Positions 48,155-64,000 are shown, counted from the first letter of the stretch. The stretch is DNA of 64,000 bases from Patescibacteria group bacterium (GCA_050947035.1 JBMNVW010000004.1:22433-86432), one strand, 5' to 3'. Notes: generated from the sequence alone by a model not told the origin. Program-made: numbers and translations.

Positions 48155-48943
48155 ATGAAGTGGCGAGGAGCTTTGAGTTTGGTATTGATGGTTTTTTTGT
48201 TGGTTGGGACAACGATTATGGCTGAAGGAGCCAGCGTTTGTCCACCAGGTAACGTCAAGTATGAGATAGGAGGAGGATACGAATACAACGATGGGTCAGG
48301 CTGGATCGAGGCGAGCGAATTTAGGGTTTGTTGGGGAGCCAATGAGGGCTATCGGGTGATTGGAGTTTGTATTTATGTCGGTGGACCCGATAAAGACAGT
48401 CGACAGATTAGTCTTGGTCCTGGAGATGGTTGTTGGAATAATCCAGAAAAGTATGGCATTTCCCATGTCGTGCTTTATACGGAAGCTATTCCGGAACCAA
48501 CGCCAACGGACGTTCCACCAGAACCGACACCAACAGGAACTCCTTCGGAGCCAACGGCAACAGCGACGAGTACGCCTACGTCAACGCCATCGTCAACACC
48601 GACGGCAACACCGACGGCAACACCGACGGACCCGCCGCCTACGCCAACCGAGGTTGCGCCTACTCAGACGCCGAAGCCGACGTCAACATCGGAGCCGACA
48701 CCGACGGATGTTCCCCCCGAACCAACACCAACGGATGCTCCACCGGAATCAACGTCGACACCTAAGCCGACCGATAAGCCAAAAACACCGGTACCGCCGA
48801 CAGAAGAGCCATTGCCAACCCCGAATGGTCTTCCTTCGACTGGCGGCCAGGCAGAGCCAAACAGTCCATTAACATTGATGGTTATCGTTTTGGCTGGAGG
48901 TGTTTCTCTTGCCTTTTTTGTTTTGCGCCGTCGCAAGATCTAG
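48155..48943 (+). CDS. LPXTG-type cell-wall-anchored surface protein with Cys-containing N-domain and long Pro/Thr-rich linker
   Basis: signal peptide, strong SD AAAGGAGAGGAAG, C-terminal LPSTGG + hydrophobic stretch + RRRKI sorting signal. Confidence 0.7.
   Translation: MKWRGALSLVLMVFLLVGTTIMAEGASVCPPGNVKYEIGGGYEYNDGSGWIEASEFRVCWGANEGYRVIGVCIYVGGPDKDSRQISLGPGDGCWNNPEKYGISHVVLYTEAIPEPTPTDVPPEPTPTGTPSEPTATATSTPTSTPSSTPTATPTATPTDPPPTPTEVAPTQTPKPTSTSEPTPTDVPPEPTPTDAPPESTSTPKPTDKPKTPVPPTEEPLPTPNGLPSTGGQAEPNSPLTLMVIVLAGGVSLAFFVLRRRKI
48481..48900 (+). repeat. GC-rich tandem coding repeats (ACACCGACGGCA units) encoding PT-rich linker
   Basis: local GC jump and imperfect tandem repeats visible in sequence; generates spurious alternate-frame ORFs. 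Confidence 0.7.
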
Positions 48944-51340: not shown

Positions 51341-52810
51341 CTACTTTTCTTGATAGACCAATCGCTCCTCTACTTGGCTGGTAAGGTTTTGGTGATTTCT
51401 TAAGTATTCTTCCAACACTTGTTGGGCGGAAGTGGTAATAATTTTTTCTTGCCCCGATCCTAATAATTCTTCATGACTAATATTTAAATAATCAGGAGCG
51501 CTTTTAACATGATAGCCCTGTAGGCAAAGAGTATAAATCTTTTCGTTTTTAACCTCCTGGTCGTTTATAGTTAGGGAAATTAGCTTTTTCTTTTTATCAT
51601 TGTAAATTGCCTGAACTCCTCGATTGGTCTGATAGCACTCCCCTTCTCCATCTCGATTATCAACTCTCATAATATGGGTAAAGATCTTTTTTAGGGCTTG
51701 GCCATTGATTTGGTATTGCCTTAGAGAATCATCATAAGGAAAGCAGGTTAACAAATCTTTTAAAGTAACCAGGGGGCCCATTTTTTTAATTCTAATTGAG
51801 CCACTGCCGATCAAAACAACATCGGATCCAGCTCTTTGGGCAAAAGCATCAGCAATTAAATTACCCAAAGATGTTTCTTCTTCTCGCCTGGGGTGGGTAA
51901 GAGTTTTGGCGAACTTGGTGATTAAGACCTTGTATTTGCGGTCAACGTCTTTTTTGAAGGAATTAATAAATTTTTCTAAATTTTTATCGGGCTTGGCTAA
52001 ATTGTTATCAATAGGTATTAACTGCCATTGATAATCAACAATGCTATTGGTGTCATCATCAACGGTAATGTCAAACCGGCCGATTTGATCAGAGCCAACG
52101 CCGGCTTGGGCAATTAGAGCACCATTGACCATTTTAGGCTTTTTCAAAACAGTGTGGGAGTGGCCGCCGATAATCAAATCTACTCCCCACTCGGGTTTTA
52201 GCATTTGGGCTAGTTTAATGTCTGACTCATAGCCGATGTGGGTCAAGAGGATAGTTAGATCAATATCTTGGCTTTTGTAGGCGTTGCAAATTTTACCCAC
52301 TTCCGATGAGGCTTCTTCCAAGCTAATAAAACTGCCGATTAGCTCATCTTGTTTAATGGAATCCATCACCTTTTCGGTGATGATGCCGGTGAAGAGAATA
52401 TCAAAGCCGGCCTTATTAATAATTAAATAGGGGCGCATTAATCTTTTATAGTATTTTTTAATATAGAGATTGGCATTAACAATGGGGAAATTAGCCATTT
52501 TTTCTAAAAATAACAAATGGGGCAAGCCATAATCAAACTCATGGTTTCCTAAAGCGACTACATCAGGAGCCAGGTAATTGGTAATCTCAATAGTGGAAAT
52601 GCCTTTGTATTCAGAATCAATTAATGAGCCCTGAATCATATCGCCGGAGATAAGATACAAAACGTTTTCCTCTTCTTTTCTAACCCGGTTAATATAGCCG
52701 GAAAGCAGTGCTAAACCGCCGATTAACTTTCCTCCACCCCTTTTTACTTCGGCCAAGAAGTCGCCGTGCATATCGTTAGAATGAAGAATGGTGAATTTTT
52801 TGGTTCTCAT
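51341..52810 (-). CDS. bifunctional metallophosphatase/5'-nucleotidase family protein
   Basis: calcineurin-like motifs SNDMHGD, GNHEFDYG, GGHSH and C-terminal 5'-nucleotidase substrate domain. Confidence 0.8.
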   Translation of the reverse strand: MRTKKFTILHSNDMHGDFLAEVKRGGGKLIGGLALLSGYINRVRKEEENVLYLISGDMIQGSLIDSEYKGISTIEITNYLAPDVVALGNHEFDYGLPHLLFLEKMANFPIVNANLYIKKYYKRLMRPYLIINKAGFDILFTGIITEKVMDSIKQDELIGSFISLEEASSEVGKICNAYKSQDIDLTILLTHIGYESDIKLAQMLKPEWGVDLIIGGHSHTVLKKPKMVNGALIAQAGVGSDQIGRFDITVDDDTNSIVDYQWQLIPIDNNLAKPDKNLEKFINSFKKDVDRKYKVLITKFAKTLTHPRREEETSLGNLIADAFAQRAGSDVVLIGSGSIRIKKMGPLVTLKDLLTCFPYDDSLRQYQINGQALKKIFTHIMRVDNRDGEGECYQTNRGVQAIYNDKKKKLISLTINDQEVKNEKIYTLCLQGYHVKSAPDYLNISHEELLGSGQEKIITTSAQQVLEEYLRNHQNLTSQVEERLVYQEK

Positions 52811-56495: not shown

Positions 56496-57308
56496 TTATT
56501 CTTCCACTACCGAGTTACTTTTTTGTCCTGAAGTATTATTAGGAGCACTGTTTTGATTATTACCCCCGTCCCCGTCGGCTTCAATGATGATATCTTGAAT
56601 ATCAGTTTTGGTTTCGGGGTCGCTTCCTGGTTCAGTTCCGGGCGCAAACCTCATTTCTCCCCCTTCGATAATGACTTCAACTTTTTTTCCTGCTTCTCCT
56701 CCCGGTCCGGTTCCTGGGGCAAATTGGGTTTCCCCGCCCTCAACAACGACCCCGGCTTCTCCTCCTGGTCCGGTTACCGGTGCCCAAACATGCTTTACCT
56801 CATTAAAAAATTCTGTTTGCCCTTCCGGACCGTTTACCTCTACCACTCTTTGAGCCACTTGATTAACAACCCTTTCTTGGACGCGAACCACCTCTTGTTT
56901 AGCGTCCTCATTAACCTGGGTTTTTATTTGTTCCATGGTTCTTTGCTGTTCAATGGTTCTTTCTTGCACGGCTCCCAAAACCTCTCCTTGATCAGCCTTG
57001 TCTAATAAATTATCTTGTTTTTCTTTAACTTGGAGGTAGTCTTGGATTAAATCTTGAACTTCTTGGTCGTCACCAGTGTCGGCTTGGGTTTGGGCGGCGG
57101 CTAGTCTTTTTTCGGCGTGTTTTTCTAGAACCTCAACTTTTTTCTCGGTTCCGAAGGCAAAAAAATATTCCACTCCTTCCTGGATTTTGGTAATAAGTGA
57201 GTTTGGCGAAGTAATTACTTCTGGTAATTCAACCGCTTGGGCCGAGCAAGGAAGAGCAATGAAAGTGAAAAGAAAAAGCAACACCAACAATAACCTTTTG
57301 ATGTTCAT
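56496..57308 (-). CDS. secreted coiled-coil protein with C-terminal GPGGEAG..EGGE..FAPGT repeats (DUF5667-like)
   Basis: signal peptide, long helical Gln/Glu-rich segment, three ~20-aa Gly-rich repeats. Confidence 0.45.
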   Translation of the reverse strand: MNIKRLLLVLLFLFTFIALPCSAQAVELPEVITSPNSLITKIQEGVEYFFAFGTEKKVEVLEKHAEKRLAAAQTQADTGDDQEVQDLIQDYLQVKEKQDNLLDKADQGEVLGAVQERTIEQQRTMEQIKTQVNEDAKQEVVRVQERVVNQVAQRVVEVNGPEGQTEFFNEVKHVWAPVTGPGGEAGVVVEGGETQFAPGTGPGGEAGKKVEVIIEGGEMRFAPGTEPGSDPETKTDIQDIIIEADGDGGNNQNSAPNNTSGQKSNSVVEE

Positions 57309-57399
57309 CCTAAAAAAAGATTATATCTTTGGGGGCGACAAGTCAAAACCTTGTACGGGTTCGATACACATTCGACATTCCTCCTTTTTTTAATGATAT

Positions 57400-57450
57400 A
57401 GTCCATCGGTGTCTCATAGTCTAGGTCTTGATGGACTCTTTTTAGTATTG
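57400..57450 (+). terminator. hairpin AGTCCATC-22nt-GATGGACT followed by CTTTTTAGTATT; terminator/attenuator-like element in the 5' leader region of the Hsp70-like gene
   Basis: 8-bp stem verified; T-run on plus strand only. Confidence 0.3.
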
Positions 57451-57519
57451 TAAAAGATTAAGTAATCAGCTAGTTTTTTGTTAAACGCTCTTTGATTATG
57501 AGTGATATAATGTTTTCGC

Positions 57520-58839
57520 ATGAAAGAAAAACTAAAAGTAGGCTTGGATTTTGGAACTAGTAACTCAGCTATTGCTACAATCGAAAATAATAGGGTAAGA
57601 ATTTTTGAAACAAAAGAGGGACAACCAACACAACCTTCATCAATTTTTATTAGAGTAGACGGCTATGTCAGTGTTGGAAATCAAGCAATTGAAGACTTCC
57701 AAGACCAAGAACAACATACTGACGAGTATCACTTTATCCCTAGCATAAAACCCGGCCTTTCGGTAGATTACTATGACGGTAATGTTTTGCGTTCAAAAAA
57801 AACTATTGTTAATGGCAGATTTCTAACCCGATTTTTTCCTGTAGAAGAATTAGGAGGAAGCCTTATTGCTGATTTAAAGAAAAGAGCTGAAATTGCTGCG
57901 GGTGTTGAAACTGAAAGCGTTGTCTTTGGTAGACCAGTATATTTTTCGGAAGACGAGCAACTTGATCAAAAAGCTCAAGATAGGCTTGAATCAGCAGCAA
58001 AACAAGCTGGTTTTAGAGAAATCCAGTTTGTTCTTGAACCCGTAGCGGCGGCTTTGTATTACGAGCGATATTTTTCAACAGGAGAACCTCATAAAATTTT
58101 TGTCTTTGACTTCGGAGGAGGAACCTTAGATGTTTCGGTTCTTAACTTCAATGATTCTCAAACTGCCGGAGAAGCATTGACCATTGATAAACTCTCTAAA
58201 ACTGTTTTAGGAAGTCACGGTGTTGATCTTGGCGGAACAGATTTTGATAAAGATATTTTTGAAGACATGTTTCTAAAATATTTTGGCTCTAACGTAACTT
58301 ATGGTAAAAAAGAATTGCCGATGCCAGCACATTTTTATCACAATATTACCGAATGGCATTTGCAAGAGCATAGGGAAAAAAATAGAACATTTGAGTTTTT
58401 ACGTAGTATTGCCAATGACTCAAATTGCAGTGACAGAGAAGCGGTCAGTCGTTTGATTACATTAGTTGAAGACCAACAAGTATATTCAATTTTAAGGAAA
58501 ATAGAATTTGTTAAAACACAACTCTCGGCAAACGGGACAAGGCAAATCAGACACAATCACAGGAATATCCACATCGACGAGCTACTAAGCAGAAAAAGAT
58601 TTGAAGCAATAGTAAGATCAAGAATTGCACTTATTCAGGAATGTGTGGATGATTGTCTGAAAAAAGCACAAATCAGCCCGCAGGAAATTGATGTTGTTTT
58701 AAAAGTTGGGGGATCTTCAAATAATTTTTTTGTAGATGAAATGTTACGAAGGATCTTCCCTGGTCATATTAGAGGAACAGACGTTTTTACGAGTGTTGTT
58801 TCTGGGCTGGCAGTTGCGGCAGAAAGCTTATCTGATTAG
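57520..58839 (+). CDS. Hsp70-family ATPase consisting of the nucleotide-binding domain only (YegD-like, no substrate-binding domain)
   Basis: GLDFGTSNSAIA phosphate-1, IFVFDFGGGTLDVSV phosphate-2, VDLGGTDFD connect-1, VVLKVGGSSNN adenosine motif; ends at ~439 aa. Confidence 0.75.
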   Translation: MKEKLKVGLDFGTSNSAIATIENNRVRIFETKEGQPTQPSSIFIRVDGYVSVGNQAIEDFQDQEQHTDEYHFIPSIKPGLSVDYYDGNVLRSKKTIVNGRFLTRFFPVEELGGSLIADLKKRAEIAAGVETESVVFGRPVYFSEDEQLDQKAQDRLESAAKQAGFREIQFVLEPVAAALYYERYFSTGEPHKIFVFDFGGGTLDVSVLNFNDSQTAGEALTIDKLSKTVLGSHGVDLGGTDFDKDIFEDMFLKYFGSNVTYGKKELPMPAHFYHNITEWHLQEHREKNRTFEFLRSIANDSNCSDREAVSRLITLVEDQQVYSILRKIEFVKTQLSANGTRQIRHNHRNIHIDELLSRKRFEAIVRSRIALIQECVDDCLKKAQISPQEIDVVLKVGGSSNNFFVDEMLRRIFPGHIRGTDVFTSVVSGLAVAAESLSD

Positions 58840-59405
58840 CCAATTGTGTTTACGGTTTGCTCAACAAGACTAAGAAACTCTTCTTTTGAGATATCACTGT
58901 TTTTAATACGAATCACATTAAAACCATCTCTTTCCAAATTCTCCATTAACCATTGATATGCTCGGACTTCTTCAGAGACATCCTCAATTGATCGGGGAGA
59001 ATGAACACAATGACCGCCTTCTCTGTAGAAACTTATTTCTGGATCGATTTCTAAAAAAACAATTGTGCAGCAAATTCCTTTGCCCATTCTTCTTTCAAAT
59101 ATTTTTTTCCCAAGTTCATAAATCAAGGAAGAATGATGAGGTTTTTTTCTTATGTTATAAGCAACTAGTGACCAGATAGATCTATCCATTGCCGAAGTCG
59201 ATCCATCAGAGCCATTTGTTGCTAGCTCTAAAACATCGATGCTTTGTCTCCAATTTTCTGCTTCTCGATTAACAACCAATTCTTGAGCTGGGGGAATACC
59301 CCTAAACGATTTATAGCCCATTTCTGACAAATGCTCTGCGGCAGTTGTTTTCCCGCTGCCCTGCACGCCTTCAATAATAAAAACCCGGCTATTTCTTTCT
59401 TTCAT
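58836..59405 (-). CDS. P-loop kinase, deoxynucleoside/nucleotide-kinase-like
   Basis: Walker A GVQGSGKTT, dNK-type (D/E)RS motif AMDRSIWS, LID-like Arg cluster; 189 aa. Confidence 0.55.
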   Translation of the reverse strand: MKERNSRVFIIEGVQGSGKTTAAEHLSEMGYKSFRGIPPAQELVVNREAENWRQSIDVLELATNGSDGSTSAMDRSIWSLVAYNIRKKPHHSSLIYELGKKIFERRMGKGICCTIVFLEIDPEISFYREGGHCVHSPRSIEDVSEEVRAYQWLMENLERDGFNVIRIKNSDISKEEFLSLVEQTVNTIG

Positions 59406-59973
59406 CTAATAGTTTTTCGCGGGCAGAGCGGATTAACTTTTTAAGATATTCTGTTTTGCTTATTCCTAGATTATTGGCAGCCGTTTCGATAAAAGAATAA
59501 TCTTTGTTGTCAATAACCAAATGGAACCTAACCCTTAATTGTTTCTTGGCTTTTTTAAGTAAAGGTAAAAGGTTATTTTTTAAATCCTCAAGATTTTTAT
59601 ATTTTAAAGCAAAAAATTTTTTTGATTTAATTCCCCGGATAACCATAGAGGGATTAGATTTTTCATTTTCTGTAAACAAAGCAATAATCGGCTTTTTTTG
59701 ATAAAAGGCATGGTAAATTTGATAGCCAACACCGCTGCTCGGATAACTAATATCAGCAATAAATAAGTCAGATCGATTTATCTCATCAATTACACTGTCG
59801 TAGATATGAGGATAATCAATTTCCCCTGAAGGCAAATCAAATTCTTTTTTTCGAAAAACTACCTGAGAAACAGCAAAACCCTGATTTTTGATCAAGGAAA
59901 TTATCTTTTTGTATCTTTCCCTTTTTTCCTGAGAAACATCACTGGATGCGGCGAAAAATACTTTTGTCTTCAT
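59389..59973 (-). CDS. Rossmann-fold NDT/Rcl-like (nucleoside 2-deoxyribosyltransferase superfamily) domain fused to C-terminal ribbon-helix-helix-like tail
   Basis: KVFFAAS...SDLFIADISYPSSGVGYQIYHAFYQKKPII parallels the NDT motif with Glu to Gln substitution; C-terminal RVRFHLVIDNK + helix resembles RHH. Confidence 0.45.
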   Translation of the reverse strand: MKTKVFFAASSDVSQEKRERYKKIISLIKNQGFAVSQVVFRKKEFDLPSGEIDYPHIYDSVIDEINRSDLFIADISYPSSGVGYQIYHAFYQKKPIIALFTENEKSNPSMVIRGIKSKKFFALKYKNLEDLKNNLLPLLKKAKKQLRVRFHLVIDNKDYSFIETAANNLGISKTEYLKKLIRSAREKLLDERKK

Positions 59974-61514
59974 GCTCGTTTGTTTTGATATTGGCTAGTT
60001 GATAATCCAGCTTGATTATACAGGTAATCTGTCTGATTTCCAATTAAAACCAGATTTTTGGAAAACTCTCTTTGTGATTTTTCCAAGATGTTTTCAAGTT
60101 TGGCCGGATCTGAACCATGAGGAATAAGCCTTTCCGCAACTTCAAGATCCATGCCCTTTAAAACCATATATAATTCATGAAATTTAGCATGCATTTGCGG
60201 GGAGACGTTTTTAGGCGCAGAGATGGGGTCAATTACTTGTTCATATAAAGAAGCAAGTTTTCTGGACCATGATCTTAAAGCAAGATAAAAATTTCTAGCT
60301 TCTGGATCAACGATTTCATATAAATTATTAGCCCCCTCCTTTCCTTTGAATTCTATTTCGCGACGCAACTTTTCGGTAATTTTCGTTCCTTCAGCAGCAA
60401 ACAGTCTGGTACATATTCCTTTAGTTACCGCCCATTTAAATCTTCTCAGATAATGTAATTCCTCTTCAACCTCTGCTATGGTTGTAAAAGGCCAAAACAT
60501 AATATGGCCCATTTGAACATAGATGCCGTGTTTATGTAAAATCTCCAGAGCCTCAATATTTTGCTCTACTGTTGTTCCTTTAGTAAAATCACTCAGTTTT
60601 TCCTGAACAAAAGATTCAACTCCTAAACTAACCGCAAATAACCCAGCCTGCCTAAATAGCTCAATAATATCATTTTCAACATCATCAACTCTTAAAGAAA
60701 GCCGAAAGCGCATATTTATACCTGAGTTTTTTAGTAGTTGAGCAAAACGCAACTCTCTTCGCTTGTCAACTCTTTGGCCAAAAAAGTTATCATCAACCAG
60801 CTTAACCATGTCTTCTCCTTGCCTTGACAGGTCTACTAACTCTGCCACAATGCTCTCTGGGCTTCGTCCTCGCCAACGCTTTTCTGTCGAAAATTGTTGG
60901 TAGCAGGCAACCGAACAGAAGGAACAATTGCCCCTGCAACCCCTGCTTCCCATAACATGTGAGGGGGTTTTTAGTTTCCTGACCACAGGGAGGGTTCCTC
61001 TGTAGGGCAACGGTAGCAAGTCTAAATTGTCATTGGATTTTTGCCTTGGATTTCTGACAACTTCTCCTTGGTGCCAATAAATTGCCCCCGGAATGTCATG
61101 AATATCACCAATTTGTAAAAATTCTTGAAAAGTTTCATCTGCCTCGCCTGCCAAAATTCCGTCTATCTGGGGGCCGATGGCGGCTAACAAGCTATCAGCT
61201 TCAAAAGAAGCATAAATTCCCCCCAAAACTATTTGACCTTTATATCGTTGAGATCTTAAAAGCTGAATTAGATCAGTTACGACCGGAAAAGAATCCATTG
61301 AAGGTGATATTCCTACAACATCAGGTTTTCTTTCCAGAACTCTTTCAGCCGTCTGTTTGGAATCCAATCCAGACATCCAGGTATCAAGATAATTAACCTT
61401 ATGACCCCGTTCGATAGATTCTGCCGCCAAATATTCTAAACCTAAGCATTCCTCGGGTGTCCGATGGGTAGTAGTTGGTGGTGATATTAAGGTAATTTCT
61501 TTACTTTTAACCAT
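59970..61514 (-). CDS. B12-binding (class B) radical SAM enzyme
   Basis: N-terminal cobalamin-binding-like Rossmann region followed by SRGCRGNCSFCSV (CxxxCxxC) and radical-SAM barrel. Confidence 0.8.
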   Translation of the reverse strand: MVKSKEITLISPPTTTHRTPEECLGLEYLAAESIERGHKVNYLDTWMSGLDSKQTAERVLERKPDVVGISPSMDSFPVVTDLIQLLRSQRYKGQIVLGGIYASFEADSLLAAIGPQIDGILAGEADETFQEFLQIGDIHDIPGAIYWHQGEVVRNPRQKSNDNLDLLPLPYRGTLPVVRKLKTPSHVMGSRGCRGNCSFCSVACYQQFSTEKRWRGRSPESIVAELVDLSRQGEDMVKLVDDNFFGQRVDKRRELRFAQLLKNSGINMRFRLSLRVDDVENDIIELFRQAGLFAVSLGVESFVQEKLSDFTKGTTVEQNIEALEILHKHGIYVQMGHIMFWPFTTIAEVEEELHYLRRFKWAVTKGICTRLFAAEGTKITEKLRREIEFKGKEGANNLYEIVDPEARNFYLALRSWSRKLASLYEQVIDPISAPKNVSPQMHAKFHELYMVLKGMDLEVAERLIPHGSDPAKLENILEKSQREFSKNLVLIGNQTDYLYNQAGLSTSQYQNKRA

Positions 61515-62787
61515 GCTTGTTCTCTTTTGGTGAAAATATGCCAGTGCATAGATAACCCTTATGAACTAGGGCGTGTTCGCCTTTCTTAATACTTACTTGC
61601 CCGGCTTGTGTCTGTTTTTTTGGAGCAAAATCTTTAGGACAATAAGGATCTTTGACAAATAAAGTTCGTTTGTTATCTCCTTCTTTGTGCAATCTGTGTA
61701 AATAAGCTCTAGCGGCGCAGCCACCCCCACAAACAGATATCTGGTCACAATCTTGGCAACCTTCAATTATCTCAGGATTAGCCTTTCGTCTTCTAAAAGC
61801 TTGAAAAGGAGGGGAATTTAAAATTTCCTGAATATCCATTGTTTGTAAATTACCATATTTATAGTCATGTAAGTATATACAGGGAGAAATTGGTATCTGA
61901 CCATCGGGTGTAATTGAATGAATTCTAAATGAAGTGATTCCGCACGGGCATCCGGAAATAATGTTTGGGGTAATATTAACAGAGCTTGCCCAGGCCGGAT
62001 CGCTCAAATCGGTTGGTTCGCATCTTGCCAATATCGTCATTAAGCCTTGATAAAATTGTTTTGGCGTTAAGACAAGGTCCATATGTTCGGGCTCAATGGG
62101 CTTGATTGGATTGACGCGATAATTTGCCTGATGCTTAATAGCCAAGTCAATCATTTCGTTAATTCTTTCCGGAGTGAAATTCCAGTTCATTGCGCACATA
62201 ATAAAGCTTCTTGGAATTTGGTGTTTTTTGCAAATCTTTAATGCTTGCATCGCCAATTTGTAAACTCCGCTTTTACCCCTATTTTGATCATGTTCACGAG
62301 GCCTAGGAGAATCAATACTAATATCAACATCGTTTATTTTTTCTACATAACCGGGAAAGAGTCTTTCTAACTGCACCAGTGTGATTCCTGAGGTAGTAAT
62401 TCCAACTAACATCCCCTTTTTGGTGATGGAATCCAAGATATATGGAAGTAAGGAATTTTTAGGGTTAAGTCCGTTGGTGTAAATTGGTTCGTTTCCGCCA
62501 AGATTGACTGTTTCCACTCCCAAACAGGCTAATTGATTAACTACTCTGTTTACTGCCTCTTTTGTTAAATCTTGTCCGGGGTCTCTGGCGCTTTTTGAGT
62601 AACATTGTTTACAGTCCAGGGGACAGGCGTTACCTAGCGACCAGCCGACGTTTTTGTAATTGGGTTCCGCTTCAGGCAAATCAGCATGTTCTTCTATATA
62701 TCTAGCTGAAGAATAATGGGCTCGGCTTACTCGCTTTAGTTGAGACATGGTGATTATTTTGCTATCATATGCACATTCAATGCACAT
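61507..62787 (-). CDS. radical SAM enzyme with C-terminal SPASM/twitch domain
   Basis: GNACPLDCKQCY (CxxxCxxC) and C-terminal Cys-rich CQDCDQISVCGGGCAARAY auxiliary-cluster motif. Confidence 0.8.
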   Translation of the reverse strand: MCIECAYDSKIITMSQLKRVSRAHYSSARYIEEHADLPEAEPNYKNVGWSLGNACPLDCKQCYSKSARDPGQDLTKEAVNRVVNQLACLGVETVNLGGNEPIYTNGLNPKNSLLPYILDSITKKGMLVGITTSGITLVQLERLFPGYVEKINDVDISIDSPRPREHDQNRGKSGVYKLAMQALKICKKHQIPRSFIMCAMNWNFTPERINEMIDLAIKHQANYRVNPIKPIEPEHMDLVLTPKQFYQGLMTILARCEPTDLSDPAWASSVNITPNIISGCPCGITSFRIHSITPDGQIPISPCIYLHDYKYGNLQTMDIQEILNSPPFQAFRRRKANPEIIEGCQDCDQISVCGGGCAARAYLHRLHKEGDNKRTLFVKDPYCPKDFAPKKQTQAGQVSIKKGEHALVHKGYLCTGIFSPKENKHG

Positions 62788-62830
62788 TAAGGGAATATTA
62801 TATTTTACGCTCTAAATTGTCAAGTCAAAT

Positions 62831-63913
62831 ATGACCTATAAAGATCAGCATTTGCATTACACCGGCTCTTTGCCCTTGTCGTATGTTTGGTTAAAAATTA
62901 AAGATTTTCGTGGAGGCCCTATTGACGATGTTCTTCTCGAAAACTTATTTTCAAGACAAGTATCTAAAAGATTAAAAGAAGGGAACTTTTCCAATGAAAC
63001 CTATTCTCTTTTTAAAAAAGACGTAAAAGGATTATTTGGTAGCAAGAATAATCATGCCTGTAATTACAAGAAGTTCTTTGAACTATACGGGTTTATCCAA
63101 AAGATAACTAAACCCAGAAAGAGTCAAGAAATTGAATCAACCTATCGAGGGGGTATCAGCGCTATCGTTTCTTATTTGTCAAAACTTAAAGTAAGTAAAG
63201 TTGATATTTTTGCAGGACCACTTTTGGATTTAGAAAAAACAAAATACAGACTTCGAGGCATGGTTCAGGGATTAAAAGATAATAAAAATTTATCGGTTAA
63301 GGGTTCGATTAGATTGACTTTTATTAGCACAGAAAAGGGCTATAAAAATATAAATCAACAATCACTCGGAAAATTGCTTGATTATCTAATTTCTGACGAA
63401 GAAGTTTTTGGTTACATAAGCGGTTTTGATTTTTCAGGAAACGAAAACGTTGGCAACATAGATATTATTTCTTCTGCGGTAGACAGGCTTTCATCTTTTA
63501 ATAAAAAATGCCATTCACAAAACAATCGAGAGCTCAAAATATCAGTTCATGCCGGTGAAAATTTTACTAATATTTCCCCTGAAAAATATCTGAGCTATTT
63601 TGATAAATTACTAAAACTCCCAATTGACGGCATTGGCCATGGTGTATTCCTTTGGGTTCCTGACAATTTTGTAAATTATTCGCGAAAAGTGAACAAACGC
63701 CGGGATGAGTTGTTAAAAAGAGTTATTGCCAGAAACATTGAATTGGAAATCTGTCCCACCTCTAACGTTCTGTTTTCTCCGCTCAAGTCTTATAAGGATA
63801 TTCCTTTAAATTATTTCAACAAGATTGGCTTAAAATATTCAATTAATACCGACAATATGACTATTCTTTCAACTAATATCAAAACCGAGTTGAGAATGGT
63901 CAATAAAAGTTGA
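62831..63913 (+). CDS. adenosine/AMP-deaminase-family metal-dependent amidohydrolase
   Basis: HLHYTGS (HxH), SVHAGE, GIGHG and SINTDN motifs parallel the ADA signature positions. Confidence 0.7.
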   Translation: MTYKDQHLHYTGSLPLSYVWLKIKDFRGGPIDDVLLENLFSRQVSKRLKEGNFSNETYSLFKKDVKGLFGSKNNHACNYKKFFELYGFIQKITKPRKSQEIESTYRGGISAIVSYLSKLKVSKVDIFAGPLLDLEKTKYRLRGMVQGLKDNKNLSVKGSIRLTFISTEKGYKNINQQSLGKLLDYLISDEEVFGYISGFDFSGNENVGNIDIISSAVDRLSSFNKKCHSQNNRELKISVHAGENFTNISPEKYLSYFDKLLKLPIDGIGHGVFLWVPDNFVNYSRKVNKRRDELLKRVIARNIELEICPTSNVLFSPLKSYKDIPLNYFNKIGLKYSINTDNMTILSTNIKTELRMVNKS

Positions 63914-64000
63914 AGTTTGTTAATGAGTTTTATAGAATAACACTATGCCAGAATTCGGGGTAGCAACTAAAGCGATTATTTTTAATACTAAATTGAAAAA

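What the first reader, a model, noticed from the sequence alone, without database searches (positions are those of the whole stretch)
57400..64000. Compositionally distinct island: two radical-SAM enzymes plus nucleoside-enzyme-like proteins, an RHH fusion and an NBD-only Hsp70
A four-gene minus-strand operon runs 62787 to 58836 and every junction overlaps by 4-17 nt: SPASM radical SAM, then B12-binding radical SAM, then NDT/Rcl-like Rossmann::RHH, then dNK-like P-loop kinase. Gene order and overlaps: seen directly. Domain calls: motif reading only. An adenosine-deaminase-family amidohydrolase diverges from it across a 43-bp gap. An Hsp70 homologue that ends after the nucleotide-binding domain converges on it with overlapping stop codons. 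The segment is visibly AT-richer than the housekeeping genes and uses AGA/AGG Arg and A/T-ending codons (my estimate, not computed). That, and its position at the end of a run of core genes, suggests an acquired accessory island. Another ORF starts at 63944 (MPEFGVATKAIIFN...) and runs off the window, so the island likely continues. By analogy with published systems, a class-B plus SPASM radical-SAM pair suggests complex C-methylation or cross-linking chemistry, as in RiPP or nucleoside-antibiotic pathways. ADA-like, NDT-like and dNK-like proteins point to a nucleoside or nucleotide substrate. That combination would fit a modified nucleoside, a nucleotide-derived metabolite, or DNA/RNA hypermodification. 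A peptide substrate is less likely, because no precursor peptide ORF is visible. I do not recognise this gene combination as a named system.
Basis: partly seen in the sequence, partly recalled or inferred. Interest (0 to 1): 0.85.

Follow-up and report, generated by a model that had tools for sequence, protein, structure and literature searches.

The report
Radical-SAM nucleotide-modifying gene cassette
A small candidate-phyla (Patescibacteria) bacterium carries a tightly packed, horizontally scattered gene cassette with no description found in the searchable literature, in which two radical-SAM enzymes sit among nucleotide kinase, pyrophosphatase and deaminase genes, most likely to make a modified purine nucleotide or nucleoside.

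Summary
The genes, their order and their 4-17-nt overlaps are real, and all domain calls hold with refinements. The "compositionally distinct" claim is weak. GC is 0.367 against 0.393 (p=0.13). Only GC3 and AGA/AGG usage differ.

The main result is conservation. The B12-radical-SAM and SPASM-radical-SAM genes form a pair found in about 40 metagenomic loci. It also occurs in Nocardia and Streptomyces and on Enterococcus and Streptomyces plasmids. The SPASM gene with the small pyrophosphatase, but without the B12 gene, sits on Phaeobacter plasmids. Transposases, recombinases or exporters often lie nearby.

Around this family, but not around 82 generic B12-rSAM control loci, these partners recur (p 3e-12 to 3e-6):
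- a thymidylate-kinase-like kinase
- a mini-pyrophosphatase or MutT-like NUDIX, once fused to the kinase
- a purine-type deaminase (ADA-like, or MtaD/DadD-like instead)
- an Hsp70 ATPase-domain-only protein

No precursor peptide, phage copy, riboswitch or prior description was found. Best reading: a mobile pathway for a nucleotide-derived metabolite. The product is unknown.

The parts
57520..58839 (+). Hsp70/YegD-like ATPase, nucleotide-binding domain only (439 aa).
   Evidence: Pfam HSP70 3.4e-33. NCBIfam PRK11678 (YegD type) 6.8e-48, below its cut-off. The family profile hits DnaK/BiP NBDs at 7e-48. The ATPase motifs DFGTxN[ST], DxGGGTxD and GG[SGM][ST] are conserved. It lies next to the rSAM pair in 9 of 19 family loci against 1 of 82 controls.
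58836..59405 (-). Thymidylate-kinase-like P-loop nucleotide kinase (189 aa).
   Evidence: Pfam Thymidylate_kin 1.4e-6. The family profile A2 hits solved thymidylate kinases at 1.7e-28. The P-loop (G13, G16, G18, K19) and R75 are invariant and D74 nearly so. Present in 10 of 19 family loci against 2 of 82 controls. Fused to a NUDIX domain in L088.
59389..59973 (-). DNPH1/Rcl-like domain with catalytic Glu replaced by Gln, fused to a probable ribbon-helix-helix tail (194 aa). Proposed nucleotide-sensing regulator.
   Evidence: The profile hits Rcl/DNPH1 at 6.9e-11. GVGYQ aligns with GVGYE of Rcl. Q85 is invariant in 20 members that are 43-91% identical. The AF2 model has pLDDT 87.4, with a Rossmann domain at 1-144, an extended segment and then two helices. 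Foldseek finds DNPH1 and MilB at TM about 0.8. The family has only 26 clusters among 5.8 billion proteins.
59970..61514 (-). Cobalamin-binding (class B) radical SAM enzyme, 514 aa. OxsB is the closest solved relative.
61507..62748 (-). SPASM-domain radical SAM enzyme. 413 aa from Met14; the ORF extends to 62787.
   Evidence: Pfam Radical_SAM plus SPASM. CX3CX2C at C42, C46, C49 and a full SPASM cysteine set are conserved. The family is about 50% identical across phyla: 612 proteins at E<=1e-10 and 55 clusters at 50% identity. No NCBIfam equivalog is reached.
62749..62830 (.). Divergent control region: a minus-strand promoter-like site and a tandem 11-nt direct repeat (62769-62790). Candidate operator.
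   Evidence: TTGACA-17-TAATAT at 62823-62795. ATGCACATTCA / ATGCACATTAA repeat. The promoter and repeat are conserved in L004 while the sequence upstream of the -35 has diverged.
62831..63913 (+). Divergent adenosine-deaminase-family amidohydrolase (360 aa).
   Evidence: Pfam A_deaminase 2.4e-17. Alignment to Plasmodium ADA keeps HAGE, GHG and the metal-binding Asp, but DD becomes DN. HLH near the N-terminus, read from the sequence. Replaced by an MtaD/DadD-type amidohydrolase in six more distant cassettes.
63945..64000 (+). 5' end of a MutT/NudI-like NUDIX hydrolase gene, which runs off the window.
   Evidence: The identical contig L001 continues into a 139-aa NUDIX: Pfam 2.5e-17, MutT 1.8e-11. 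A NUDIX or a mini-pyrophosphatase lies next to the pair in 13 of 19 family loci against 2 of 82 controls.

Best explanation
This is a mobile biosynthetic cassette that probably converts a phosphorylated purine (deoxy)nucleoside into a modified nucleotide or nucleoside.

Shown:
- A B12-binding rSAM and a SPASM rSAM form a conserved adjacent pair.
- In Patescibacteria-type loci the pair recurs with a thymidylate-kinase-like kinase, a small family-I pyrophosphatase-like protein or a MutT-like NUDIX, a purine-type deaminase and an Hsp70 ATPase-domain protein.

Inferred mechanism:
- The kinase sets the phosphorylation state of the substrate or product (NMP to NDP or NTP).
- The B12-rSAM starts a radical rearrangement or alkylation of the nucleotide, by analogy with OxsB and AlsB on dATP and dAMP.
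- The SPASM rSAM processes the intermediate. This is the role of the second rSAM, AlsA, in albucidin synthesis.
- The pyrophosphatase or NUDIX strips pyrophosphate. This is the role of OxsA in oxetanocin synthesis.
- The deaminase, with a Ham1 ITPase in some loci, either matures or detoxifies an adenine-based product, or clears the 5'-deoxyadenosine by-product of the two rSAM enzymes.
- The Glu-to-Gln DNPH1-like::RHH protein binds a nucleoside monophosphate without cleaving it and represses the operon at the tandem repeat in the divergent promoter.
- The Hsp70-like ATPase has a conserved but unknown accessory role.

The biological use (secreted antimetabolite or intracellular antiviral nucleotide) is not resolved.
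For: Pair conservation and partner enrichment (non-redundant loci with at least 1.5 kb on both flanks, 19 family against 82 generic B12-rSAM loci):
- SPASM 13 vs 0 (p=3e-12).
- Kinase 10 vs 2 (3e-7).
- Pyrophosphatase or NUDIX 13 vs 2 (3e-10).
- Hsp70-like 9 vs 1 (4e-7).
- Deaminase 7 vs 0 (3e-6).

Functional coupling:
- A NUDIX::thymidylate-kinase fusion in L088.
- Non-orthologous replacement of the ADA-like deaminase by an MtaD/DadD-like one, and of the mini-pyrophosphatase by NUDIX.
- Ham1 ITPase next to the ADA-like gene in L164 and L174.

Protein assignments:
- Kinase profile to thymidylate kinases, 1.7e-28.
- P protein to family-I pyrophosphatases, 1.6e-8, with DGEE[LI]DAY and NDxDDKL motifs.
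- OxsB is the best solved match by profile (150 vs 64 bits) and by Foldseek (TM 0.79 vs 0.65 or less).
- OxsB and AlsB act on dATP and dAMP, with a phosphohydrolase or a second rSAM as partner (PMC13331322, PMC7074753).

Contexts outside Patescibacteria look biosynthetic: the pair or the S+P module sits with MFS, MATE or ABC exporters, methyltransferases, a GNAT, an alcohol dehydrogenase, an A-T didomain protein, APH kinases, a PNP, a thymidylate-synthase-like gene and an NDT-like gene.

Regulator: an invariant Gln at the DNPH1 nucleophile position plus an RHH-compatible tail, and a conserved promoter with a tandem repeat.

Rivals weakened: no conserved intergenic small ORF and no copies in phages.
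Against: - No substrate or product is shown. Everything rests on gene context and remote homology.
- The window B12-rSAM is only about 25% identical to OxsB (phmmer 7e-13) and lacks OxsB's N-terminal domain.
- NCBIfam's best models are BchE and HpnR.
- The SPASM family also occurs without a B-family partner (Phaeobacter) and at the head of a six-rSAM cluster in a Gemmataceae genome, so its substrate need not be a nucleotide everywhere.
- Some actinobacterial and Paenibacillus contexts carry HPr-kinase-like and NTP_transf_5 genes. From my own knowledge, those also accompany peptide natural-product clusters.
- Patescibacteria depend on nucleotide salvage, so nucleotide genes are common there, and some of the adjacency could be operon economy.
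- The RHH fold is supported only by secondary structure and weak HMM hits.
Confidence: 0.5

Rival explanations
1. Antiviral defence module. The same chemistry is used inside the cell to make a chain-terminating or polymerase-poisoning nucleotide during phage infection, as prokaryotic viperins do with associated kinases.
For: Distribution is sporadic and linked to mobile elements and plasmids. A kinase plus an NTP pyrophosphatase resembles viperin-kinase pairs. There are weak PADLOC hits: B12-rSAM to candidate PDC-M51A at 1.2e-15, kinase to PDC-M51B at 0.013, SPASM rSAM to pVip at 1.1e-11 and ADA-like to CARF_ADA at 6.5e-13. The Patescibacteria versions mostly lack an adjacent exporter.
Against: The PADLOC hits are generic superfamily similarity and do not show membership. 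Versions outside Patescibacteria sit with exporters and tailoring enzymes typical of secreted metabolites. No recognised defence genes flank the window cassette. No infection sensor is evident.
Confidence: 0.2
2. The rSAM pair acts on a non-nucleotide substrate such as a cofactor, lipid, sugar or tetrapyrrole-like molecule. The nucleotide genes serve salvage and clearance of rSAM by-products (5'-deoxyadenosine, SAH), or are merely neighbours.
Against: Enrichment of kinase, pyrophosphatase and NUDIX genes over the control loci is strong. It persists through gene-order changes, non-orthologous replacement and a NUDIX-kinase fusion. Nucleoside genes accompany the pair in unrelated phyla too: ADA and APH in Paenibacillus, and PNP, NDT-like and thymidylate-synthase-like genes in Streptomyces. 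A dedicated nucleotide-binding regulator is fused into the operon.
Confidence: 0.15
3. Peptide (RiPP) maturation. The SPASM rSAM cross-links and the B12-rSAM methylates a ribosomal peptide encoded elsewhere.
For: The best NCBIfam and PDB similarities of the SPASM protein are to peptide or protein maturases: GeoRSP, ScmE, mycofactocin, DynA, anSME. B also hits ApyD and RiPP C-methyltransferase models weakly. HPr-kinase-like and NTP_transf_5 genes occur in some loci.
Against: No conserved small ORF lies outside coding regions in 28 loci. All recurring small ORFs are antisense shadows of B, S, P or K. Junctions overlap, leaving no room in the window operon. No peptidase, RiPP recognition element or leader-type gene was seen. 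All maturase models score far below their cut-offs.
Confidence: 0.08
4. Modification of nucleic acid in place: tRNA or rRNA methylation, or DNA hypermodification.
For: Radical SAM enzymes modify RNA (MiaB and RimO are structural neighbours). A kinase together with an rSAM occurs in phage thymidine hypermodification (own knowledge).
Against: There is no homologue in 50,697 phage records. The one 'viral' contig has no viral hallmark genes. The distribution is patchy and plasmid-borne, unlike a housekeeping modification. No RNA- or DNA-binding domain is present in B or S. Exporters lie adjacent elsewhere.
Confidence: 0.05

Closest known systems
Oxetanocin A pathway: OxsB (B12-dependent rSAM) plus OxsA (HD phosphohydrolase), Bacillus megaterium plasmid
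   Same: A cobalamin-binding rSAM is paired with a dedicated phosphohydrolase, in a mobile context. OxsB is the best solved match to the B family by HMM profile and by Foldseek, covering the Cbl, rSAM and C-terminal helical domains. The OxsB substrate is a deoxynucleoside phosphate (PMC13331322).
Albucidin pathway: AlsB/AlbB (B12-rSAM) plus AlsA/AlbA (second rSAM), Streptomyces albus subsp. chlorinus
   Same: Both use a two-rSAM design in which a B12-rSAM and a second rSAM act in sequence on a nucleotide (dAMP). The published albucidin gene table also lists a thymidylate kinase nearby (PMC7074753).
   Different: AlbA is described as biotin-synthase-like, not SPASM. The albucidin operon's third gene (albC) encodes a ribonucleoside-triphosphate reductase, which is absent here. 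No orthology has been shown.
Prokaryotic viperins with associated nucleotide kinases (pVip)
   Same: An rSAM enzyme plus a nucleotide kinase produces a modified NTP. Distribution is sporadic and horizontal. The PADLOC pVip model hits the SPASM rSAM at 1.1e-11.
   Different: The hit covers only the generic rSAM core. From my own knowledge, viperins have neither a SPASM domain nor a B12-rSAM partner. No defence-island context was seen here.
DNPH1/Rcl and MilB/BlsM nucleotide N-glycosidases (NDT superfamily)
   Same: The N-terminal domain of the 194-aa protein has this fold and the PSxGVGY motif.
   Different: The catalytic glutamate is an invariant glutamine, and a DNA-binding-type tail is fused on. 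It probably binds a ligand without hydrolysing it.
E. coli YegD-type Hsp70 homologues (nucleotide-binding domain only)
   Same: Same length class and ATPase motifs, with no substrate-binding domain.
   Different: It scores below the family cut-off (164 vs 331 bits). Fixed association with an rSAM pair has not been described, as far as my searches show.

Membership tests
OxsB/AlsB-type cobalamin-dependent rSAM ring-contraction enzymes | N-terminal Rossmann cobalamin-binding domain followed by an rSAM domain with CX3CX2C | tested here: met
   Pfam B12-binding 2.7e-15 and Radical_SAM 5.9e-18. C193, C197 and C200 are invariant in 27 sequences.
OxsB/AlsB-type cobalamin-dependent rSAM ring-contraction enzymes | Four-domain architecture that includes the extra N-terminal domain (PMC13331322) | tested here: not met
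   The protein is 514 aa against 744 for OxsB. Alignments begin at OxsB residues 137-154.
OxsB/AlsB-type cobalamin-dependent rSAM ring-contraction enzymes | Specifically closer to OxsB than to other B12-rSAM families | tested here: inconclusive
OxsB/AlsB-type cobalamin-dependent rSAM ring-contraction enzymes | Partner OxsA (HD phosphohydrolase) or AlsA (biotin-synthase-like rSAM) | tested here: not met
   No HD-domain gene is present. The partners are a SPASM rSAM and a pyrophosphatase-like protein or a NUDIX. They are analogous, not homologous.
OxsB/AlsB-type cobalamin-dependent rSAM ring-contraction enzymes | Ring contraction of dAMP or dATP | not testable with these tools
   This needs an enzyme assay.
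SPASM-domain radical SAM enzymes | CX3CX2C cluster plus the C-terminal cysteine-rich SPASM motif for auxiliary clusters | tested here: met
   Pfam SPASM 7.8e-11, TIGR04085 40.6 bits against a cut-off of 27. Conserved C42/C46/C49, C267/C269, C290, C331/C334/C340/C344 and C370.
RiPP maturase systems (rSAM/SPASM with a precursor peptide) | A precursor peptide gene adjacent to the maturase | tested here: not met
   No conserved intergenic small ORF in 28 loci. The operon junctions overlap.
DNPH1/Rcl/NDT nucleotide N-glycosidases | Rossmann-like NDT fold | tested here: met
   Profile 6.9e-11 to Rcl. Foldseek TM about 0.8 to DNPH1 and MilB.
DNPH1/Rcl/NDT nucleotide N-glycosidases | Catalytic glutamate nucleophile in the GVGYE motif | tested here: not met
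   It aligns to an invariant Gln85 in 20 members.
Ribbon-helix-helix transcription regulators | Beta-strand, helix, helix DNA-binding module | tested here: inconclusive
   AF2 shows an extended segment at 145-155 and helices at 156-169 and 173-193. HMM hits are weak only: VapB 0.012, NikA-like 0.076.
Thymidylate kinase (dTMP kinase) | P-loop, DR motif and overall TMK fold | tested here: met
   The family profile hits solved thymidylate kinases at 1.7e-28 over the full length. G13, G16, G18, K19 and R75 are invariant and D74 nearly so.
Thymidylate kinase (dTMP kinase) | Reaches the curated equivalog score (orthologous dTMP kinase) | tested here: not met
   TIGR00041 scores 32.5 bits against a cut-off of 83.25.
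Adenosine deaminase (PF00962) | HxH, HAGE, downstream His and the metal-binding Asp | tested here: met
   HLH at residues 7-9, read from the sequence. HAGE, GHG and NTD align to Plasmodium ADA, and the second Asp is Asn. NCBIfam equivalog cut-offs are not reached: 61.5 against 216.55.
Hsp70 chaperones | Nucleotide-binding domain with the actin-fold ATPase motifs | tested here: met
Hsp70 chaperones | C-terminal substrate-binding domain | tested here: not met
   The protein ends at residue 439. Matches cover only profile positions 2-238 and the rest of the NBD.
PADLOC candidate defence system PDC-M51 | Both component models matched at family level | tested here: inconclusive
   Model A scores 55 bits (1.2e-15) and model B 13 bits (0.013). 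No literature on the candidate was found.

The most novel reading that the evidence does not exclude
The cassette encodes a previously unknown route to a sugar- or base-rearranged purine nucleotide, an oxetanocin-like polymerase poison. A new B12-rSAM/SPASM-rSAM pair would build it. That pair is spread by horizontal transfer from Patescibacteria to Actinobacteria and to Enterococcus plasmids, and its SPASM/pyrophosphatase part reaches Phaeobacter plasmids. In ultra-small Patescibacteria the pathway would be controlled by a catalytically dead DNPH1-like nucleotide sensor fused to a DNA-binding tail. It would also need an Hsp70 ATPase-domain protein as a new kind of rSAM accessory factor.
Probability: 0.2. 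Interest if true: 0.9.

Novelty: new variant of a known kind. Interest (0 to 1): 0.72.

Why it matters
- Only two B12-rSAM nucleoside pathways are known, oxetanocin and albucidin. Both give antiviral or herbicidal oxetane nucleosides.
- A third enzyme pair, much more widespread and embedded in nucleotide-handling genes, would open a new family of nucleoside-analogue natural products and new radical chemistry.
- It would be notable in Patescibacteria, which have tiny genomes, lack nucleotide synthesis and are thought to have little secondary metabolism. There it could be a weapon or an antiviral measure in their episymbiotic lifestyle.
- The dead-enzyme-turned-sensor (DNPH1-like Glu to Gln fused to an RHH) would be a new type of nucleotide-responsive regulator.
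- The fixed Hsp70-domain partner hints at an unrecognised helper for radical SAM enzymes.
- The cultured hosts (Nocardia, Streptomyces, and Enterococcus and Phaeobacter plasmids) make all of this directly testable.

Tried and rejected
- **Composition:** GC, GC3, AGA/AGG use and codon distance show only a weak signal, so I do not use composition as evidence for an island.
- **Riboswitch or leader RNA:** no Rfam match at E<=1 in 57000-64000. The 217-nt leader folds no better than shuffles, z=-0.57.
- **Phage origin:** no tblastn hit in 50,697 phage records. The single IMG/VR hit, L170, carries a transposase, a methyltransferase and an MFS pump but no viral genes.
- **Precursor peptide:** the small-ORF clustering returned only antisense shadows of the conserved genes.
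- **Named families:** all NCBIfam equivalogs are far below their cut-offs. PADLOC gives only generic hits.
- **Unknown partners:** the 534-aa Phaeobacter protein is not a B homologue and the 434-aa Nocardia protein is not Hsp70-like, hhalign probability 0.2 for both.
- **RHH by Pfam:** running the isolated tail gave only weak hits.
- **Structure prediction of N from locus-derived sequences:** I redid it with searched homologues.
- **AFDB fold search:** unavailable.
- **Literature:** five searches found no description.
- **Search limitation:** the first B12-rSAM homologue search missed the actinobacterial orthologues, probably because of its word-index candidate limit. They were recovered through the SPASM partner.

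Full report
**1. Observation**

- A minus-strand operon runs SPASM rSAM (61507-62787), B12-rSAM (59970-61514), a 194-aa NDT-like protein (59389-59973) and a 189-aa P-loop kinase (58836-59405).
- The junction overlaps are 8, 4 and 17 nt.
- A 439-aa Hsp70 homologue (57520-58839, +) converges on the kinase with a 4-nt overlap.
- An ADA-family gene (62831-63913, +) diverges from the operon across 43 bp.

Pfam and NCBIfam confirm every domain call. No NCBIfam equivalog cut-off is reached by any of the six proteins.

Two coordinates need correcting.
- The next gene starts at 63945, not 63944. An identical contig, L001, shows it is a 139-aa MutT/NudI-like NUDIX hydrolase.
- Gene callers start the SPASM gene at Met14 (62748).

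The exact proteins occur in MAGs labelled Patescibacteria. The closest named relative is a Candidatus Shapirobacteria bacterium.

**2. Composition**

The "compositionally distinct" claim does not hold as stated. I compared the six genes with the 50 other genes of the window.

| Measure | Cassette | Rest | p |
|---|---|---|---|
| GC | 0.367 | 0.393 | 0.13 |
| GC3 | 0.300 | 0.342 | 0.02 |
| AGA/AGG share of Arg | 0.64 | 0.38 | 0.003 |
| Codon-usage distance | 0.108 | 0.116 | 0.65 |

The 2-kb GC windows here fall within the range of the rest of the window.

The accessory nature of the cassette is better shown in other ways.
- In L004 the B12-rSAM is 83% identical, yet the flanks are unrelated to the window's TypA, DEAD-box helicase and DUF5667 genes, and the Hsp70-like gene is not adjacent.
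- Related loci carry IS30-, IS3- and IS1595-type transposases or serine recombinases.
- Homologous pairs lie on plasmids.

**3. A conserved cassette**

The B12-rSAM defines a family of about 57 clusters at E<=1e-67, followed by a sharp drop to generic B12-rSAMs. I fetched 160 loci around relatives from genome and metagenome collections and labelled their ORFs with iterated profiles.

I then compared non-redundant loci with at least 1.5 kb on both flanks: 19 family loci against 82 generic B12-rSAM loci as a control.

| Partner within 5 kb | Family (n=19) | Control (n=82) | p |
|---|---|---|---|
| SPASM rSAM | 13 | 0 | 3e-12 |
| Thymidylate-kinase-like kinase | 10 | 2 | 3e-7 |
| Mini-pyrophosphatase or NUDIX | 13 | 2 | 3e-10 |
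| Hsp70-like protein | 9 | 1 | 4e-7 |
| Purine-type deaminase | 7 | 0 | 3e-6 |

Gene order and orientation vary among loci, but the set persists. Three observations tie the partners together functionally.
- L088 encodes a NUDIX::thymidylate-kinase fusion.
- The 118-aa pyrophosphatase-like protein and the NUDIX substitute for each other.
- The ADA-like deaminase of the closest subclade is replaced in six more distant cassettes by an MtaD/DadD/TRZ-ATZ-type amidohydrolase.

A Ham1/RdgB ITPase sits beside the ADA-like gene in two loci. The ADA-like and NDT-like genes are therefore lineage-specific additions and not part of the core.

**4. The pair beyond Patescibacteria**

The SPASM protein belongs to a compact, strongly conserved family, about 50% identical across phyla. 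It has 612 proteins at E<=1e-10 and collapses to 55 clusters at 50% identity. Members in cultured organisms again sit beside B-family orthologues scoring 445-499 bits to the profile.

| Locus | Organism or replicon | Gene order |
|---|---|---|
| L167 | Nocardia mangyaensis | B, S, pyrophosphatase; serine recombinase nearby |
| L169 | Streptomyces antimycoticus | B, S, APH, HPr-kinase-like, PNP, thymidylate-synthase-like, NDT-like, PfkB, and others |
| L173 | S. clavuligerus plasmid | aminotransferase, methyltransferase, HTH, B, S, APH |
| L172 | Enterococcus conjugative plasmid | B, S, pyrophosphatase, A-T didomain, MFS |
| L171 | Phaeobacter inhibens conjugative plasmids | S, two unknowns, pyrophosphatase, GNAT, MATE, ADH, methyltransferase |
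| L168 | Paenibacillus lutimineralis | APH, ADA, aminotransferase, distant B12-rSAM, ABC exporter, S |

Exporters and tailoring enzymes give these loci the look of small-molecule biosynthetic clusters.

There are two exceptions.
- The Phaeobacter partner of S is not a B homologue.
- In a Gemmataceae genome, S heads a run of six rSAM genes.

The Hsp70-like protein and the thymidylate-kinase-like kinase are specific to the Patescibacteria-type cassettes.

**5. The individual proteins**

*B12-rSAM.*
- The family profile finds OxsB as by far the best solved match: 5e-43 and 150 bits, against 64 bits for the next hit.
- The AF2 model is confident, pLDDT 91.6.
- Foldseek ranks OxsB first: TM 0.79 and E 7.5e-28, against TM 0.65 or less and E about 1e-19 for the others.
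- The single-sequence match is remote, 7e-13 at about 25% identity, and OxsB's N-terminal domain is absent.
- OxsB is therefore the closest solved relative by two of three measures. It is not an orthologue.

*Literature on OxsB and AlsB.* OxsB contracts the sugar ring of dATP, dADP or dAMP and works with the phosphohydrolase OxsA. AlsB acts on dAMP and needs a second rSAM, AlsA (PMC13331322, PMC7074753). The cassette here combines both partner types with non-homologous proteins.

*Kinase.* It is thymidylate-kinase-like, 1.7e-28 to solved enzymes.

*Small pyrophosphatase.* It keeps the family-I acidic motifs in a truncated fold.

*ADA-like protein.* It keeps HxH, HAGE, GHG and the metal-binding Asp, with DD changed to DN.

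*Hsp70-like protein.* It keeps all the ATPase motifs and has no substrate-binding domain.

**6. A probable nucleotide-sensing regulator**

The 194-aa protein is closest to Rcl/DNPH1, the deoxynucleoside-5'-phosphate N-hydrolases (6.9e-11, Foldseek TM about 0.8).
- The glutamate of the GVGYE motif is the catalytic nucleophile of DNPH1 (own knowledge). PDB entry 8qhq carries Gln at this position.
- That glutamate aligns with a glutamine that is invariant in all 20 diverged family members.
- The C-terminal 50 residues form an extended segment plus two helices. They have conserved R-F-x-L and T positions. This fits a ribbon-helix-helix, although HMM support is weak.
- The family has only 26 clusters in 5.8 billion proteins. 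All the members whose locus I examined lie in the cassette.
- The divergent gap holds a TTGACA-17-TAATAT promoter for the operon, followed by a tandem 11-nt repeat. Both are conserved in L004 while the neighbouring sequence has diverged.

I infer a ligand-responsive repressor. This has not been shown.

**7. Rival readings tested**
- *Peptide substrate.* No conserved small ORF lies outside coding sequence in 28 loci.
- *Phage or DNA modification.* No phage homologue exists, and the one "viral" contig has no viral genes.
- *Riboswitch.* None found.
- *Defence.* Only generic PADLOC similarity. It cannot be excluded, and it would use the same chemistry.
- *Non-nucleotide substrate, with the nucleotide genes serving salvage or by-product clearance.* This remains possible, since BchE and HpnR are the best curated models and L092's amidohydrolase scores best against the 5'-deoxyadenosine deaminase model. 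The fusion, the substitutions and the cross-phylum recurrence of nucleoside genes argue against it.

**8. Verdict**

The evidence supports that idea and sharpens it.
- The core is a widespread B12-rSAM/SPASM-rSAM pair with a pyrophosphatase.
- The Patescibacteria version adds a kinase, a deaminase, an Hsp70-domain ATPase and a dead-enzyme regulator.
- The product and its biological role are unknown.
- Five literature searches found no prior description. The library searched is incomplete.

Noticed in passing
window 62769-62790: A tandem 11-nt direct repeat (ATGCACATTCA / ATGCACATTAA) lies just downstream of a strong promoter-like site. It overlaps the first ATG of the SPASM ORF and is conserved in the Shapirobacteria relative L004. 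It may be an operator, and it suggests the true start codon is Met14 at 62748.
   Followed up: partly
window 48155-48940 (+): A 262-aa ORF with GC 0.533 has the most deviant codon usage in the window (distance 0.221), far more unusual than the cassette. It has no Pfam or Rfam match.
   Followed up: partly
window 51344-52810 (-): A UshA-like 5'-nucleotidase/phosphoesterase (2.4e-49) lies about 4.7 kb upstream of the cassette. It is probably nucleotide salvage, and I did not test any link to the cassette.
   Followed up: no
L088 2289-3404: A single 372-aa protein fuses a NUDIX domain (7.9e-16) to a thymidylate-kinase domain (2.7e-34), next to the B12-rSAM and an amidohydrolase.
   Followed up: partly
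L175 8001-15233 (Gemmataceae MAG): A close homologue of the SPASM rSAM heads a run of six consecutive radical SAM genes beside a transposase, with no nucleotide genes. This context differs from all the other loci.
   Followed up: no
L169 12286-17241 (Streptomyces antimycoticus): Downstream of the rSAM pair lie PNP, thymidylate-synthase-like, NDT-like, PfkB/HMP-kinase-like, DAO and TenA genes. From my own knowledge, this set resembles bacimethrin-type pyrimidine antimetabolite pathways.
   Followed up: no
L100 5852-11584: A high-GC contig of 165 kb carries two B12-rSAM copies flanking the SPASM gene and an MtaD-like amidohydrolase, plus NUDIX and kinase genes.
   Followed up: no
window 57400-57437: A perfect 8-bp inverted repeat (AGTCCATC ... 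GATGGACT) followed by CTCTTTTT lies in the 210-nt gap upstream of the Hsp70-like gene. It looks like a terminator. The region as a whole folds no better than shuffles.
   Followed up: partly
L001 3522-8756 (continuation of the window's contig type): Beyond the NUDIX gene lie TspO, a second NUDIX, NYN, a glycosyltransferase, a DNA-alkylation-repair protein, a GNAT, a queuosine-salvage (DUF2419) protein and a PD-(D/E)XK nuclease. I did not examine whether any of them belongs to the cassette.
   Followed up: no
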